Assembly: GCA_034780895.1 (NCBI GenBank)
Contig: JAUZTB010000001.1
Coordinates: 46,985,925 to 47,049,924 of the forward strand
Length of the DNA stretch: 64,000 nucleotides
Direction of reading: 5' to 3'
From: Rhynchobatus australiae
Lineage: Eukaryota
Both the position numbers and the translations under genes were made by a program. Shown here piece after piece: positions 15,772-55,494 of the stretch. Numbering within the stretch: position 1 is the stretch's first letter; each line of letters opens with the position of its first letter. Below the pieces are notes generated by a model, which saw nothing but the letters and a program-made list of their open reading frames with translations, was not told the DNA's origin and did no database searches.

Positions 15772-17847
15772 CTGTGTTTGAAAAAATATTAGGTACATGA
15801 TTATTTGTTGTCAATGAATTTAGCTAACTTTTTTCATCTGAAATGACTGAAACAACCAACTTACTTTTGTACATGATGTCTAGTTAACAATTTGCAGCTA
15901 TNNNNNNNNNNNNNNNNNNNNNNNNNNNNNNNNNNNNNNNNNNNNNNNNNNNNNNNNNNNNNNNNNNNNNNNNNNNNNNNNNNNNNNNNNNNNNNNNNNN
16001 NAATTTGCAGCTATCAACCATCACATTCTACCACTGTCTAAAATAGATTGATCCGTTATATTTTGCCTCTTTTTTCTTCCCTACCATACAGAACTAACTA
16101 ATCAGAAGTCACAATTCATACATTTAGCCATGAATCAGAAAATTACATTTCATACAAACAGTTCAATATAGATGTGGGAAAGTTTTTTTTAATTTGCTCC
16201 ACATTTTAGACATATGGTTTCCTATTCCCCCTATGCTTTCTCTCTGTATTAGCTCTCAAAGCAATTTCATCCCCCCTGCTGATTTGTTGATTTAGATTGG
16301 GAATAGTTCATGCCCAAGCACTAATACCTTCAGTACCTGACTGGTAACAAACTACCAATCTAAGAAGGATATGCTCGTTCCTACACTTGTTTTTTTTGGT
16401 AACTCTCAGTCAACACTAGAACATTAACCCAACCCTATGTGCTCTAATCTCACCATCCTCTTCTGTGTAGGATTTCACTGAAAACATTCTGAAAATCCAA
16501 ACACATCACATCCATTGGTTCACTCTGGTTTACTCCACTAGATACATTTTCAAAAAAAATTAAATAGATTAATTACATTTGCTTTCATAAATCCACAATG
16601 ACTCTGCTCAATTATATTATTTCAAGTATTGTGATACTACAGCTTTTGTTAGAAATTCCAGCATTTTCACAATTGCTGATATCAGACTAACAGGTTAGCA
16701 GTTCCCTGATTTGTCTCTCACTCCTTTCTTTAAATAGTGGGGTTACATTTGTTGCCTTGAATTCTGCAGGACCCATTCCAGAATCTACAAGTTTTTGGGA
16801 GATGGTAATCAGAGCATCAATTTTCAGTTTCACTAATAGTTTGCATTTTTTAACATTTTAATTTCTTTCAGTTCCTTATTGGACCCTTGGTTCTCCAGCA
16901 TTTCTGGCATGTGTTTTGCATCTTCCATAGAGGCAGAAACAATGTTTTAATTTGTTTCCTCTGCTATTTCTTTATTTCCCCCAAAAATTCTCTCTTCTCC
17001 ATCTGTAAGGGACCCAAATTCATCCTCACTGTATTTTTCCCTTTTTACATACCTACAGAAACATCTACAGTCTGTTTCCATGTTTCTTGCTAATTTACTC
17101 TTTAATACAAGTTGATAATATTTTAATACTCTTTAATACAATTTATACAATATAAAATACAATTTAATATTGTATTTCCCCTTTCTTTGTCAATATCTTG
17201 GTCATCCTTTGCTGAATTTCAAAACACTGCCAATCACCAGCCTTACTAGTTTTTCTAGCAATTTTCTAAGCCTTTTCCTTAGATTTAATGCTATCTTTAA
17301 TTTCTCTCGTAATCCACAGATGGTCCACTTTTCCTATTTTTTTGCACCTTAAAAGGAATGTGTATTTCTTGCAAATCATGTTAATCTTCAGTGATTTATG
17401 TGCAAAGGCATCAAGGTGCCCATGAGGACCGACCTTCTAAAATTCTCCACCATTAAAAAATATTTTCCTTTTTTAAAATTTTTTTTCTACCAAAGTGGGT
17501 GACTTCACATCTTTACCATGTTCTTGATCATTTACTTAGCATATCTATATACCCTTGAAAATTCTCTGCATCCTCCCAACAACTCCTACAACCACCCAGC
17601 CTCATATCATCAGCAGATCCCCTCATGTGATCTCCTCATTCAAATTATTGATATACATTGTAGATAACTGTGACCCCAGCACATGCCTGCAGCATGCTGC
17701 TAGTTACAGCCTACAATAGACAAAATGACCCATTTATTGCTACTACTTTTCTGTTCCTTAACCAACCCTCAATCCATGCAAGTGTATTATTTTCAATTGT
17801 TACAGACTAGGTTACTATTGGTGAATGCCCCTTTAAGAGAGCACAGT

Positions 17848-48634: not shown

Positions 48635-48888
48635 CTAAAATAGTTCAGGAAAATAGTAATTTACCAAAAAAATTTGCAAAATCTTCAAAAGCCTTTCATA
48701 ATGTCTGGTACTTTAAATCTAGTGATTTATATTATATTGGCTGTTAAAATGAAACTAATGGAGAAAGTATGTAACTGACTAGATTAGTTTAATAACCATC
48801 CTAGTTTCACAGGATTCCTAATTTGCACCTATTATAACATAATGAACAGTCTTGTTTTTGTTTTGCTTCAGACAGGAATGCAAAGTAC

Positions 48889-49284
48889 CTCTGACAATGA
48901 GCTTTGCTGTGGACATCTTTTCTTGCTTGCCGAGGCGGCCTACACAGGTATATTCACCCGTATCTGAAAGCTGCACATCAATGATATTCAACTTTCTATC
49001 CTTGCCATCGGCGGTGAATTTGTATTTTGGACCTTCTCTTATAGTACTCCCGTCCTTCATCCAAGATGTTAATGCCGTAGATGGGGAAATCAAGCATTCG
49101 AATATAGCAGAAGAACCTATTGACTCCGCTTCTTCCAAAACAACATCTTGTAACTCTCTGACAAATTTCAGCTGGACTGCTTTAAGTTGGAACCCTGCAA
49201 ATGGTGGTTCCTCTGAAGGTGGCCTCCCTCCACCTGGTTTAAGTGGCTTCTTGTCTCCTTCTCCAGGTGATGGTGTCTTTCTCG
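48889..49284 (-). CDS. ttn: Titin exon, end of PEVK plus Ig I84
   Basis: 396 nt; RKTPSPGEGDKKPLKPGGGRPPSEEPP...FQLKAV...GSSAIFECLISPS. Confidence 0.94.
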
Positions 49285-50381
49285 CTAGAATTCAGAGATG
49301 AACATAAATAGATTATATTTTATTGGTTTTATTGCATGCTTCTGAAGAGGATTTTATGTGAACCANNNNNNNNNNNNNNNNNNNNNNNNNNNNNNNNNNN
49401 NNNNNNNNNNNNNNNNNNNNNNNNNNNNNNNNNNNNNNNNNNNNNNNNNNNNNNNNNNNNNNNNNGTTCACATAATTTATGTGAACCAATTATTTAGATG
49501 CCATGTGTCAGTTTCAGTCGATAAAATTCAATGATGACATATATAGAGCACTGAAATTGACTACCCAAGAAGAAACCAAACTCTGAAAATTTGGTTTTGG
49601 TCCTTCTCTAAGGTAAATTGATGCATGGAAGCCCACCATTGAAAGTCTATGCATTCCATCATGCGATAATGATTGCAGACGGCAAGATTTGCACCACATT
49701 CAGCCATTATAATTTCAGCTTGAGTAGATTTGCAATCTTAGTCTTCAGATATAACCAAGTAATTTTGAGCAGCAACAGTTCTGTATAGCCCAAAACATTG
49801 CATTTTGCACATAAACAGAGGAAGACACATGCATTAAAGTATCAAATCTAATATTGTGATCACAATCTGATTATGTACATGGAACATAGTAGGAATTTCT
49901 CTGCTCACTTTTACAGCAAGTCTTCCTTAGCAACATTAATTGCAGAAAATATACAGCAGCAGTATACAAATAGATCACTCATGATCAAGTAAATTGGGTT
50001 AATTGAACTCCACATGTTGCTTTATGAAGCTGCAGGATGTGAAGGACAGCAATACATGCAAAATTAAACAACAGATTGTTATCCAGTCTCTGCAGCCATT
50101 TTGTAACTGGGAGGCCATACAAATTGATTTGACATTACAACTTAAAATAACTGAAGTATAGTAGAGCATTTAATTTTGTTTGCTCTAATGTGCATGATAT
50201 TTGAATAGGATACTTTAGAAAGCAATATAATTTATCCATTTAAATAGACGTAGTACATTGAGAAAGTATTGCATACTGTTTGTGTGCATTTTACGTTCCT
50301 TGGTGCGTGAGGATAAAATATAAATGTTTACAATCAAGCATGGATTTTTACTGTGATTATGTGCATGATAGCCCTTCTCAC

Positions 50382-50432
50382 CTCTTAATAAGCCTCTACC
50401 TTTGCCGGCTTCATCAGCTGGTGCCTTAGCAT
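50382..50432 (-). CDS. ttn: Titin 51-nt PEVK exon
   Basis: cag|AT GCT AAG GCA CCA...AGA G|gtgag = DAKAPADEAGKGRGLLR, phase 1-1. Confidence 0.85.
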
Positions 50433-51084
50433 CTGCAGTGAGATAGTAACATAATCATAAGCACATCATTACTATCCTGTAAGTCAATAAATGTTATAAA
50501 GTTTCTGTAACAACCAGTGGGAAAAAAATGATGAGGCTATAAAGTGTAATTTAAATGAAAAAATATATTTATGTCTCATACATAATATGTATAATGTATA
50601 TTATGTATGAAAATATGTACAAAAATGATGAAAATGGTACCTTAATTACTTTGATATACTAAACAAAGGTTTATTCATGCGACCAAAGGAAAATTAACAT
50701 GAAAAAAGGTGTATTAGGTTAGAATGAGTAAAATATATAACCATACAATTTGAATAGTTTATAGAAGTCCTTGCCTTATGAAATATAATGAAAAATGATT
50801 TTAATTCATTCATAGTTCTGTTAATAGCAACATTAAAGCAATTTAAGACAATTTTTCTTTGGAAGTCATTGGACTACATGGACCAAACACAAGCAACAAA
50901 CATGAATTTTAGACTTCACACTGTTGACTACAATACTTCATGCACACAAATATAACTTGCATTGCCAGGTGAGACAAGTACACTTAACAAAGATGAACAC
51001 ATACAACATCAAGGAACATTGATCCATTTTCCAAAGCACAAGATATGAACAATCAGTTTGGCAGATGTGCAGCAGTCCTCTCAC

Positions 51085-53324
51085 CTCGTCGTTTGAAAGG
51101 CTTTGAAGGAGTTTCAACTGCACCTTCATACAGTTCGTCATCATCTTCACACTCCCAATCAACCGATGAGCCACCTTCCTCTTCAGTTAGTTCTGATTCC
51201 CAATCTTCTTTGTCCCGTAATTCTTCTATTGATATTTCTTCTGATTCCACTTCATAGTCTTCTGATGATGATACTATTTCAGAAGGAACTTTCTTCATGC
51301 GCACCATTTCTTGCTCTTTTTCTGCTATACTCTCTTTGCCAGCTTTAAGGTGTGCAACATCCTTAGGAGTGAGTACTTTCTTTACAGGCATTTTCTGTGG
51401 CTTTTCTTCTACTACAACTTCCTTTGAGGGAACCTTCTTCAATTCTATGTGATCCTTTTGATCTTCCAAAACAGGAATTTTTCCCTTCCCAGTTTTATGA
51501 TGTACTGTATCAGTCAAATCTCTAGGAGTCAGTACTTTCTTTATTGGTATTTTCTGTAGCTTTTCTTCCACAGCAACACCTTTTGAAGAGACCTTCTTCA
51601 ATTCTACATGATCTTTTACTGTTTCTGACACTGGGCCTTTTCCATTTTCAGTTTTAAGGTGTGGAACATCAGGTAAATCTCTTGGGGTCAGTACTTTCTT
51701 CACNNNNNNNNNNNNNNNNNNNNNNNNNNNNNNNNNNNNNNNNNNNNNNNNNNNNNNNNNNNNNNNNNNNNNNNNNNNNNNNNNNNNNNNNNNNNNNNNN
51801 NNNCAGTACTTTCTTCACGGGTATTTTCTGTATCTTTTCTTCTACCACTATGTCTCTTGATGGGACTTTCTTCAGCTCCAAATGATCTTTTTGTTCCTCC
51901 TGTTCCTGTAAAACTGTGGATTTCTTTTTGTCAATTTTAGTACCTGCAATTGGTTTTTCTTCTTTAGAAACTGCCGTAAGCTTTTCAGACAGTTTGTCAA
52001 TCTTTTGTGGTTCTTTTTCACCTAATGCTTCTCCTTTTAAAGGAATATTTTTCGGGAGGACTATTTCTTGTTCTTCTTTTGGAACAGGAACTTTCCCTTT
52101 ACTAATCTTTAAAGGAATTTCATCTTTTTTTTCTTTAGAGGGAACCATTTTTTTTTCAGGTAATACCTTAGGAACACCAATCTCTCCTGCAGTGAATTCA
52201 GGAACTCTTTTTGATGGAGTTGTTTCTGAAACAATCTCCCTGGGTACTCCCTCAATTGGAAAAACTTCTATAACTTTGGATTTTCCTTCTTCAGGAGATA
52301 GTTCACTTCTTGGTTTGTGAATAATTTTGGGAAGGTCAGTTTTTGTGAGATAAGNNNNNNNNNNNNNNNNNNNNNNNNNNNNNNNNNNNNNNNNNNNNNN
52401 NNNNNNNNNNNNNNNNNNNNNNNNNNNNNNNNNNNNNNNNNNNNNNNNNNNNNNGGTCAGTTTTTGTGAGATAAGGATGTTCTGTTTTCTCCCCAACAGG
52501 CTGAGGAAGTGTACTACTTTTTCTCAATGTCACATGCTTTTCTTCTTCTTCCTGTTCTACAGGTAATTTATCAGGCTTTGTCAGTGGAAAGGTGTTCTCC
52601 TCCTCTGCACCAGGAACCTTAGCCTGCTTTATTGACTTTTTTTCCTTATCACCTATCTTCATAGGAACTGCTTTTGATTTGGTTACAAACACAGGCTTCT
52701 CCTTACTTTTGTCAGTTTTAGGAACAAGATCAACCTTTTCCACTGTTATTTGTTTCTCTATAACTTTTTCATCAACGTGCATTTCATTAAGTTTCTTTGA
52801 CACACTGTGTTTTTCTTCTAAAGCTTCTTTTTTAGGAATTATCTCAAGCTTTTTGAATTGCACTTTATCTGCTTCTTCCTCTTGTTTGGGGATGTAATCG
52901 AGTTTCTTTAGTGCAACTGGCTCTTTATCCACTTCCTTGGGTGGTACCCTACTATCTATTTTTGGTAATATTTTGCATGTTTCATCCTTTTCAAGGGAGA
53001 TTTTCTCTTTGTCTACTTTAGGAATCTCATCAACCAACTGTAAAACTATATCTCTTTTTGTTTCTATCTCTTCTAATATTATACCTGGTTTCTTTGGCAA
53101 TGTGTAATATTCATCAGTTTCAATTTCTTTAGGGCTTTCAGTAGATTTCCTGAGTTTTAACCCTATTTCTTTGTCATCTTCTTTATGGGATCTCGCTTCT
53201 TCATCTTTCACTTTCTCAGGAACCTTACTACGTTTCTTCAATATTGAAATTTCTCTATCTTCTATTTCTTTTGGAATTTGGACTGTAGGTTTTAGTTTCA
53301 AAGATGGCTTGGATTGTTCTGCAG
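51085..53324 (-). CDS. ttn: Giant PEVK-like titin exon (about 2004 nt after closing two overlapping gaps)
   Basis: tag acceptor at 53325-53327, GTGAGA donor at 51079-51084; K/E/P/V-rich open frame; phase 1-1. Confidence 0.85.
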
Positions 53325-53716
53325 CTATAAAGGTTTCATATTCAATTTAGTGACACATCAACAAAGACTTTTGCAATCCCCTAAAAGAACAGTCTAACAT
53401 CAAAACAAAACAAGTTATAGTCTCCAAACCACATTGGTGTTCACCAAATAAAAGCACACAGTGAAACTTTTCCATAGTCAACATAATTTTAAAATAAACA
53501 CATTAACAGAAAGAATCACAAGACAAGTTACATGACTTGTAACTATTTTAGTAGACTGAAGAGACAAATTGATACAACTAGAACACAACATTTAGGATCT
53601 AGTGGAAATCTATAAATTTAAATTTAGTGCACAAATCTGAACAGAGAATGTACATTAATATATTACAGAGTTAAATACTTTAAAATTTAAGCACAATAGG
53701 ATATGAGAAATTGTAC

Positions 53717-53794
53717 CTTTAACAGGTTTCTTGACTGGCCCTGGTGTAGTGATGGGAAGTGTAGTAATAGGCACTTCTTCAGCTTCTGGCTCTT
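53717..53794 (-). CDS. ttn: Titin PEVK exon (5' end in N gap)
   Basis: EPEAEEVPITTLPITTPGPVKKPVK; AAG|GTAC donor. Confidence 0.8.
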
Positions 53795-54554: not shown

Positions 54555-55494
54555 CTTCAAAAAATATTTTTGTTCAAATGTTTAGTTTTTGTACAAATGA
54601 TCTAAATCACNNNNNNNNNNACTCAGTTATTAACAATGTTCCAAAAGTATTTTTGGTGCTTTTGGAACATTATTAATAAAGGTCATTTGAATGGCCTTTT
54701 CTTAATTTTCCTTTAAAGATTTAATAAGCAACATTTGAGTGTTAATTATTTATATATTTTAAATATTCATACACAAGTAAAGATAATAGTTTAAATAATG
54801 ACAAAGATATAACAACAAAAATTGAAAAATCATCCAAAAGATGACATTAATGTTCAATCTGATCTTAGTTGGGCAAGAAATAAGAAGCTTTCTGTACAGT
54901 CTTACCTCCTATGCAATCTTATCTAATCTCCAGTCTTGGCCTATGTAAACCAATGTTTAAATTATATTCTGGTAGCTGGTAGTATATCTTTACTGAGAGA
55001 GACTCTTCACCTAACAATCAGCAACAATTAGATAACTTCTATTTAGATAGTATGGGTTTTGTGAAATATTCCAAAAAATACTCCAAAAATTTGTAAACTT
55101 TTGTACTCCATAACAAATGTCAATAACATGATGCAAACCAAGACAAGAAAGAAGAGAACTAGTNNNNNNNNNNNNNNNNNNNNNNNNNNNNNNNNNNNNN
55201 NNNNNNNNNNNNNNNNNNNNNNNNNNNNNNNNNNNNNNNNNNNNNNNNNNNNNNNNNNNNNNNNNNNNNNNNNNNNNNNNNNNNNNNNNNNNNNNNNNNN
55301 NNNNNNNNNNNNNNNNNNNNNNNNNNNNNNNNNNNNNNNNNNNNNNNNNNNNNNNNNNNNNNNNNNNNNNNNNNNNNNNNNNNNNNNNNNNNNNNNNNNN
55401 NNNNNNNNNNNNNNNNNNNNNNNNNNNNNNNNNNNNNNNNNNNNNNNNNNNNNNNNNNNNNNNNNNNNNNNNNNNNNNNNNNNNNNNNNNNNNN

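What the first reader, a model, noticed from the sequence alone, without database searches (positions are those of the whole stretch)
51085..53324. Giant (~668-codon) symmetric PEVK-like exon just before the last PEVK exons
Seen: an acceptor at 53325 and a GTGAGA donor at 51084 bound a K/E/P/V-rich open frame. Both internal 100-N gaps have identical flanks (15 nt and 21 nt). Collapsing them gives 2004 nt, one frame, phase 1-1, so the exon is skippable in frame. The fully visible neighbouring PEVK exons are 51-84 nt. From memory, mammalian titin has only small exons at this position. Inference: a lineage-specific cassette that could switch in about 70 kDa of extra spring in one splicing event.
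Basis: partly seen in the sequence, partly recalled or inferred. Interest (0 to 1): 0.75.

Follow-up and report, generated by a model that had tools for sequence, protein, structure and literature searches.

The report
Ancient giant spring exon in titin
The muscle gene titin, here likely from a shark or ray, has one unusually long open coding stretch of 668 codons at the end of its elastic segment; a similar stretch sits at the same place in bony fishes, so it is likely an old optional exon, probably lost in mammals, that would add a predicted floppy spring in one splicing step.

Summary
Observation confirmed. On the minus strand AG|53324…51085|GTGAGA bounds 2004 nt once two assembly gaps are collapsed: phase 1-1, no stop in 667 full codons, 52% PEVK, 76 kDa. 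Contigs of two other organisms show exactly these joins. 'Lineage-specific' is not supported. Three teleost titin models carry a similar acidic/Trp tail directly before the same next exon. A profile search found 104 more proteins, mostly 450–950-residue open frames with that tail, and 93 read through what looks like the same donor. All 10 named hits are teleosts. A teleost-only tail profile ranks this exon first of 5160 frames (E 0.0012). Six other models, including chimaera and a primate, go without it. Homology is weak outside the tail. Inclusion in mRNA was not tested. One relative shows two 1-nt deletions in A-runs, likely errors. Best reading: an ancestral jawed-vertebrate cassette, predicted disordered, with a conserved tail that may bind a partner; not WH2. 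The scan earlier noted a similar 846-codon exon in another genome (e1-8587100, unreviewed). I found no paper describing it in 10 searches, but full-length fish titin annotations could not be seen.

The parts
51085..53324 (-). Giant PEVK-like titin exon, 2004 nt after gap collapse, phase 1-1, 667 full codons plus one split codon
   Evidence: joints
53325..53350 (-). 3' splice acceptor (TTTATAG|CT), weak pyrimidine tract like the other PEVK acceptors of this gene
   Evidence: 26 of 104 teleost frames show a like read-through near their start
51079..51084 (-). 5' splice donor GTGAGA (reads through as R-R-G-E)
   Evidence: unchanged in organism B (0 other letters in 51060-51112); 93 of 104 teleost frames read R/K-G-E at this point
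52334..52475 (.). Assembly gap 1 (100 N) with 21-nt duplicated flank; real sequence is contiguous
   Evidence: joint 'skips 121' in X2-X5
51689..51818 (.). Assembly gap 2 (100 N) with 15-nt duplicated flank; real sequence is contiguous
   Evidence: joint 'skips 115' in X2-X5
51296..51887 (-). Three tandem 53-codon (159-nt) repeats, each with an ELKKV motif; 73-77% DNA identity, pS 0.46-0.76 against pN 0.11
51085..51307 (-). Conserved tail: MKKVP, acidic stretch with two Trp, GAVETP, basic end; homologous to the teleost tail
53717..53794 (-). Upstream small PEVK exon (acceptor hidden in a gap), counterpart of the chimaera TAPITTPIGGKRPVK and primate PIAAPVTVPVVGKK exon
50382..50432 (-). Downstream 51-nt PEVK exon (DAKAPADEAGK...), counterpart of chimaera DAKAPGEEAGR and teleost GKP.EE exons
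48884..49284 (-). Exon holding the PEVK end and first distal Ig domain; anchors the position in titin (86% to Callorhinchus)
50939..50944 (-). TGCATG (RBFOX-type site, name recalled) 140 nt downstream of the donor; single site, weak
   Evidence: background 0.25 per kb

Best explanation
This is a real, single-copy 2004-nt in-frame titin coding stretch at the end of the PEVK segment, likely an optional (cassette) exon inherited from the common ancestor of cartilaginous and bony fishes and probably lost on the way to mammals; when included it would add a predicted disordered chain of about 668 residues to titin's I-band spring. Shown: boundaries, frame, gap joins, position between orthologous small exons, long-term coding constraint on its internal repeats, and a teleost counterpart with a similar tail and size. 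Inferred: that it is spliced in and out (phase 1-1; gene models with and without it); that it acts mainly as an entropic spring, adding about 240-254 nm of contour length, about as many codons as the 25 small upstream PEVK exons I could pick (628), and so lowering passive stiffness; and that its conserved acidic/Trp tail and repeated hydrophobic-x-LKK motifs are short binding sites, most likely for the thin filament, while the rest drifts almost freely.
For: Frame and joins. Single match in G000 for the 5' 865 nt. Repeat constraint pS 0.46-0.76 against pN 0.11, Fisher p 5e-4 to 1e-8 for 3 of 3 pairs. Teleost models found independently through the next Ig exon carry the tail just before the same small exon: P0010, P0002, P0018; the carp model P0018 enters and leaves the segment at the matching ends. 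Profile search: 106 hits, 10 of 10 named ones teleost. 100 of 104 new hits match the tail pattern, 93 read R/K-G-E, 95 of 100 have at least 450 residues before that point; 26 with both ends give a median of 597 residues (476-950). A tail profile built from 99 hits without the window ranks this exon first of 5160 six-frame fragments in 184 kb, E 0.0012, next 3.5 (90-residue version E 0.0054). Composition matches (median PEVK 50%). Models without the segment: P0003, P0005, P0006, P0009, P0012, P0019. No fold predicted: mean pLDDT 47.5 and 39.9 with 40- and 58-row alignments. [LM][KR]K[VTIL] occurs 5 times against 0.57 in shuffles here, median 4 against 0.32 in 95 teleost frames, and 0 in 450 residues of primate PEVK. 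Contour length: (0.36-0.38 nm per residue is recalled). Upstream exon sum: (lower bound; gaps hide more).
Against: Organism C has two 1-nt deletions (52125, 52148) in runs X3 and X4 of one sample; if real they give a stop at codon 360. Recent substitutions show no clear constraint: 16 synonymous, 31 non-synonymous, 0 nonsense among the 47 listed sites (one search listed 40 of 81; 7 more), against 14.1 synonymous expected; omega about 0.83, p 0.32. Homology to teleosts is weak outside the tail: a head profile from 26 hits did not find the window; the whole-exon profile scored the window at -19.9 bits, above all 300 shuffles (max -32.9) but below two unrelated teleost PEVK stretches; teleost P0037 found no match in G000; phmmer of the 5' piece found 0 hits; the 3' piece alone found none. 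Only 1 of the 104 new hits (P0037) is modelled as spliced onward; the rest run into intron. Teleost donors are inferred from protein read-through, not seen as DNA. Elephant-shark heart PEVK clones are only 372-424 residues (PMC12241362), too short to hold such an exon. Loss in mammals rests on one gene model, published mean exon lengths and recall.
Confidence: 0.72

Rival explanations
1. The exon was once coding but is now decaying or rarely used in this lineage (relaxed selection, broken in organism C), so it no longer works as a spring switch.
For: Omega about 0.83 on 47 listed sites; two 1-nt deletions in organism C in 2 of 3 runs; chimaera model P0006 skips the position.
Against: Both deletions lie in the two longest A-runs (8 and 9). 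The same X3 contig is also one base short in two intronic 7-base runs (50522, 54116) where organism B matches the window, and X5's contigs end on either side of the site: a pattern expected of homopolymer under-calling (the indel table hid 18 rows, so this tally is partial). Organism B shows 0 gaps in the exon pieces against 6 and 28 gap letters in two flanking intron pieces. 0 stops in 667 codons in the window. Fast drift is usual for disordered linkers (general knowledge).
Confidence: 0.1
2. It is an alternative last exon or a retained-intron unit: transcripts read through the donor, stop soon after and end, making a short Novex-like titin or a separate small product.
For: 103 of 104 new hits are frames that run on past the donor point, and public annotations file several as separate genes ('unc-89-like', 'myb-like protein X', 'neurofilament-like', 'uncharacterized'). 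A stop follows 9 codons after the donor and an AATAAA lies at 50675.
Against: Read-through is what an intron-blind gene caller gives on genomic contigs. The residues after the donor point are variable in length and sequence while the donor point itself is kept. Four models splice onward (P0002, P0010, P0018, P0037). One AATAAA in 653 AT-rich bases is unremarkable. No conserved start upstream.
Confidence: 0.08
3. Shark and teleost giant exons arose independently at the same intron, and the likeness is compositional.
For: Head profile and single-protein searches fail; the window is a long branch (2.1) outside all teleost groups.
Against: Same position, same inferred phase and donor, similar length, and ordered tail motifs (MKKVP, acidic W, DWE, GA[VL]ETP, KR) scoring E 0.0012 in a window-free profile; the GKGKIP…KKVP unit of the shark repeats aligns with the teleost pre-tail (weak, 2.9 bits).
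Confidence: 0.07
4. It is a tandem array of WH2 or thymosin-type actin-monomer-binding domains rather than a spring.
For: Repeated LKKV/LKKT-like motifs, enriched over shuffles, followed by an acidic Trp tail; mammalian PEVK binds F-actin (PMC12295887, abstract).
Against: No WH2 or thymosin Pfam match in 4 window pieces or 12 teleost proteins. 381 of 456 teleost motifs have a proline where the WH2 helix should be and 0 of 456 have all three hydrophobic helix positions; in the window 3 of 5 have such a proline (WH2 spacing recalled). No helix predicted there.
Confidence: 0.03

Closest known systems
Vertebrate titin PEVK segment (PPAK-type and polyE exons; PEVK-CB = last exons)
   Same: Position between N2A/PEVK and the distal Ig domains; phase 1-1 symmetric exon; K/E/P/V-rich; predicted disordered; alternative use in gene models.
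   Different: 2004 nt against a mean of 76 nt for mammalian PEVK-C exons; PEVK 52% against 0.84 (PMC6469411, passages); no PPAK Pfam match; own 53-residue repeats and a conserved acidic/Trp tail.
Titin N2B unique sequence (large single-exon, tissue-specific spring)
   Same: One large exon that adds several hundred disordered residues in one splicing step, with length varying between species (N2B element 876 residues in rat, 1302 in turtle; PMC11033294, passages).
   Different: Lies at the PEVK end, has no flanking Ig domains inside the exon, and tissue pattern and partners are unknown; no sequence comparison with N2B was made.
Elephant-shark connectin (Hanashima et al. 2025, PMC12241362)
   Same: Same gene and clade; PEVK splicing differs between heart and skeletal muscle; next exon 86% identical.
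   Different: The text read mentions no giant PEVK exon; cloned PEVK segments are 372-424 (heart) and 634-774 residues (skeletal). Figures 1 and 2d, which draw the exons, were not visible.
Teleost single-exon models misnamed unc-89-like, myb-like X, neurofilament-like (P0151, P0167, P0037, P0063)
   Same: They are the teleost counterpart of this exon by tail sequence.
   Different: Filed as separate genes rather than as a titin exon.

Membership tests
Titin PEVK exon | Lies in the titin gene between N2A and the distal Ig domains | tested here: met
   Exon map of window plus 120 kb upstream; next Ig exon matches titins
Titin PEVK exon | Symmetric phase 1-1, frame-preserving | tested here: met
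   2004 nt, AG|CT…G|GT
Titin PEVK exon | High P/E/V/K content (about 70% of the segment per PMC12241362; 0.54 per-exon threshold in PMC6469411) | tested here: not met
   52% here, median 50% in the teleost hits: PEVK-like, just under the published threshold
Titin PEVK exon | PPAK or polyE repeat structure | tested here: not met
   No PPAK match in Pfam scan; only the last 60 residues are acidic
Titin PEVK exon | Intrinsically disordered | tested here: inconclusive
   pLDDT 47.5 and 39.9, at most one 9-residue helix: consistent with disorder, but low confidence is not proof
Titin PEVK exon | Included in muscle mRNA and alternatively spliced | not testable with these tools
   Only gene models with and without it
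WH2 / beta-thymosin actin-binding motif | LKK[TV]-type motif | tested here: met
   5 in the window, enriched over shuffles
WH2 / beta-thymosin actin-binding motif | Amphipathic helix before the motif and a family profile match | tested here: not met
WH2 / beta-thymosin actin-binding motif | Binds actin | not tested
Lineage-specific (cartilaginous-fish-only) exon | No counterpart in bony vertebrates | tested here: not met
   Teleost counterpart

The most novel reading that the evidence does not exclude
Fish titin has a third, overlooked 'unique sequence' beside N2B and N2A: a 600-residue single-exon module, kept for some 450 million years in sharks, rays and probably both teleost titin genes, whose conserved acidic/Trp tail docks a specific partner and whose repeated LKK motifs grip the thin filament, so that one splicing choice switches both spring length and thin-filament drag; mammals lost it.
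Probability: 0.25. Interest if true: 0.72.

Novelty: new variant of a known kind. Interest (0 to 1): 0.45.

Why it matters
Titin spring length sets passive muscle and heart stiffness. Mammals tune it with dozens of small exons; this exon would let fishes add as much again in one step, which bears on why fish hearts are compliant. Because the counterpart exists in teleosts, it can be tested directly in zebrafish (exon deletion, PSI by tissue), and it matters for reading zebrafish titin disease models, whose I-band a review calls relatively unannotated (PMC7912658, passages). It also explains a set of misnamed single-exon fish genes in public annotation. It is a variation on a known mechanism, not a new kind of system.

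Tried and rejected
Expression: no RNA holder listed; this says nothing for or against expression. X6 (24 Mb) looked like a possible RNA run, but its contigs cross exon-intron borders and show no splice joints, so I treated it as DNA; its uncovered parts were not used. Searches that found nothing: 3' piece among proteins of 362-2000 residues; phmmer of the 5' piece against 1.84 billion representatives; ESM Atlas (no usable hit); teleost P0037 against G000; head profile. Full-length titins exceed the 2000-residue limit, so whether full-length fish models already include the exon could not be seen; one search scored only the 7975 candidates sharing most words. Pfam matches of the window pieces were all below cut-off. 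WH2 reading rejected. A LIR-like W-x-x-V in the teleost tail (motif recalled) is not kept in the window, so it was dropped. Intron motif counts gave nothing beyond one TGCATG. The tree (98 teleost-type rows plus window; hits under 300 residues or without the tail pattern left out) leaves the window as an unplaced long branch and does not cleanly separate two paralogues; the two tail endings (72 and 21 of 99 rows) only suggest both teleost genes. One search counts included 66 cluster members; I recounted on the 104 new hits. No complex prediction was run. Papers not held: Seeley 2007 and Steffen 2007; Hanashima 2017 on zebrafish was seen only as cited. Earlier-findings look-ups by sequence and by the long word list returned nothing.

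Full report
Setting. The window is part of a titin gene on the minus strand: PEVK end, distal Ig domains and the start of the A-band. It lies at G000:C1:46985925-47049924 in a 2.23-Gb genome. The exon after the PEVK end is closest to Callorhinchus milii (86%) among 32 hits, so the host is likely a cartilaginous fish; shark or ray is my inference. With 120 kb of upstream sequence the N2A region, the middle Ig exons and at least 25 small PEVK exons of 63-84 nt could be mapped.

The observation. The product would be 667 full codons, 52% PEVK, net charge -6, 75.9 kDa. The other frames hold 52 and 71 stops. Contigs of two other organisms show the exact joins (skips 115 and 121), and one contig spans the whole exon. 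The 5' 865 nt have one match in the genome. Three 53-codon repeats near the 3' end keep their 159-nt period across the second gap and differ far more at silent sites (pS 0.46-0.76) than at replacement sites (pN 0.11), which shows long coding constraint.

Results against. Organism C has two 1-nt deletions in runs X3 and X4, which would stop the frame at codon 360. Both lie in the longest A-runs. The same contig is one base short in two intronic 7-base runs, and the third run of that sample breaks at the site, so sequencing error is likelier, but it is not proven; the library type is not on record. Among 47 listed substitutions (one search showed 40 of 81; 7 more came) 16 are silent against 14.1 expected, so recent amino-acid constraint is not detectable.

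Not lineage-specific. Among the 32 titin fragments found through the next Ig exon, nine show what lies just upstream. Three teleost models (Lates P0010, Lucifuga P0002, Cyprinus P0018) carry an acidic, Trp-containing tail ending GA[VL]E[TA]P…KR/RR/KK that aligns with the end of this exon. Six go without it: Pangasius, Takifugu, Etheostoma, Arctogadus, Callorhinchus and the primate Otolemur. A profile of the four tails found 106 proteins; the 10 with names are all teleosts, and two cluster members add Oreochromis and Megalobrama. Of the 104 new ones, 100 match the tail pattern and 93 continue R/K-G-E, as the window does when read through its donor; 95 of the 100 have at least 450 residues upstream; the 26 that also show an acceptor-like read-through give 476-950 residues, median 597. 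The window's tail was one of four rows of the search profile, so I rebuilt a profile from 99 hits alone: it ranks this exon first among 5160 six-frame fragments of the 184 kb, E 0.0012 against 3.5 for the next. Outside the tail the likeness is weak: the head profile, the whole-exon profile and single-sequence searches do not give a clear match. Position, inferred phase, size, composition and the tail together make common descent the best reading. No hit could be assigned to a tetrapod, but most hits are unnamed and the profile leans to teleosts, so the loss is not dated. Several public annotations file the teleost exon as a separate gene under misleading names.

How it likely works. Shown: an in-frame symmetric exon between two small orthologous exons. 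Predicted: no stable fold (pLDDT 47.5 and 39.9). Inferred: inclusion lengthens the I-band spring by about 240-254 nm (length per residue recalled), about as many codons as the 25 small upstream exons picked (628), and longer PEVK goes with lower passive tension (PMC11033294, passages). Published elephant-shark heart PEVK clones are too short to contain such an exon (PMC12241362), so use in skeletal muscle or at particular stages is likelier than in adult heart; this is a guess. The tail is the most conserved part (W668, G669, W670, E671 at 90% or more in 58 rows), and hydrophobic-x-LKK motifs are enriched. A pure spring would not need that, so short binding sites are likely. Mammalian PEVK binds F-actin without canonical motifs (PMC12295887, abstract), which makes the thin filament the first candidate. 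The motifs fail the WH2 test.

Literature. Ten searches found no description of a giant exon at this place. Seen: PMC12241362, main text parts 1-3 of 5 and four supplement passages, no figures; passages of PMC9635730, PMC9575118, PMC7912658, PMC5278617, PMC6469411, PMC12198301, PMC4720518 and PMC11033294; abstract and outline of PMC12295887. Not seen: Seeley 2007 and Hanashima 2017, which map zebrafish titin exons and may draw this exon, their supplements, and full-length database models. Novelty is therefore provisional.

Verdict. Real feature; PEVK-like rather than a typical PEVK exon; likely ancient and shared by cartilaginous and bony fishes, not lineage-specific; splicing and function untested. 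New variant of a known kind, interest 0.45.

Noticed in passing
window 55821-55495 (-), running into the gap 55164-55494: A second large exon, very E-rich (at least 327 nt, short E/D/I/V repeats), four exons from the PEVK end; its donor is hidden in the gap.
   Followed up: no
window 50382-50432 (-): The 51-nt exon has a possible internal donor (GTAGAG at 50399) 18 nt before GTGAGA, which would give a 33-nt in-frame form.
   Followed up: no
L002-L003 (about 65,100-76,300 counted on from the window start): At least four near-identical 69-nt PEVK exons, a recent tandem amplification.
   Followed up: no
window 51262-51300: A 39-nt piece of the tail also matches another contig in organisms B and C (5-6 differences), with shared flanks; not identified.
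   Followed up: no
proteins P0037, P0038, P0063, P0064, P0124, P0151, P0167: Public fish annotations name this titin segment neurofilament-like, unc-89-like, myb-like X or uncharacterized.
   Followed up: partly
window 15902-16001 and 49366-49465: Two more 100-N gaps that look like false gaps: a 13-nt duplicated flank and a 'skips 123' joint in organisms B and C.
   Followed up: no
L009-L013: Many tandem middle-Ig super-repeats upstream of N2A, as described for cartilaginous fishes (PMC12241362); not counted.
   Followed up: no
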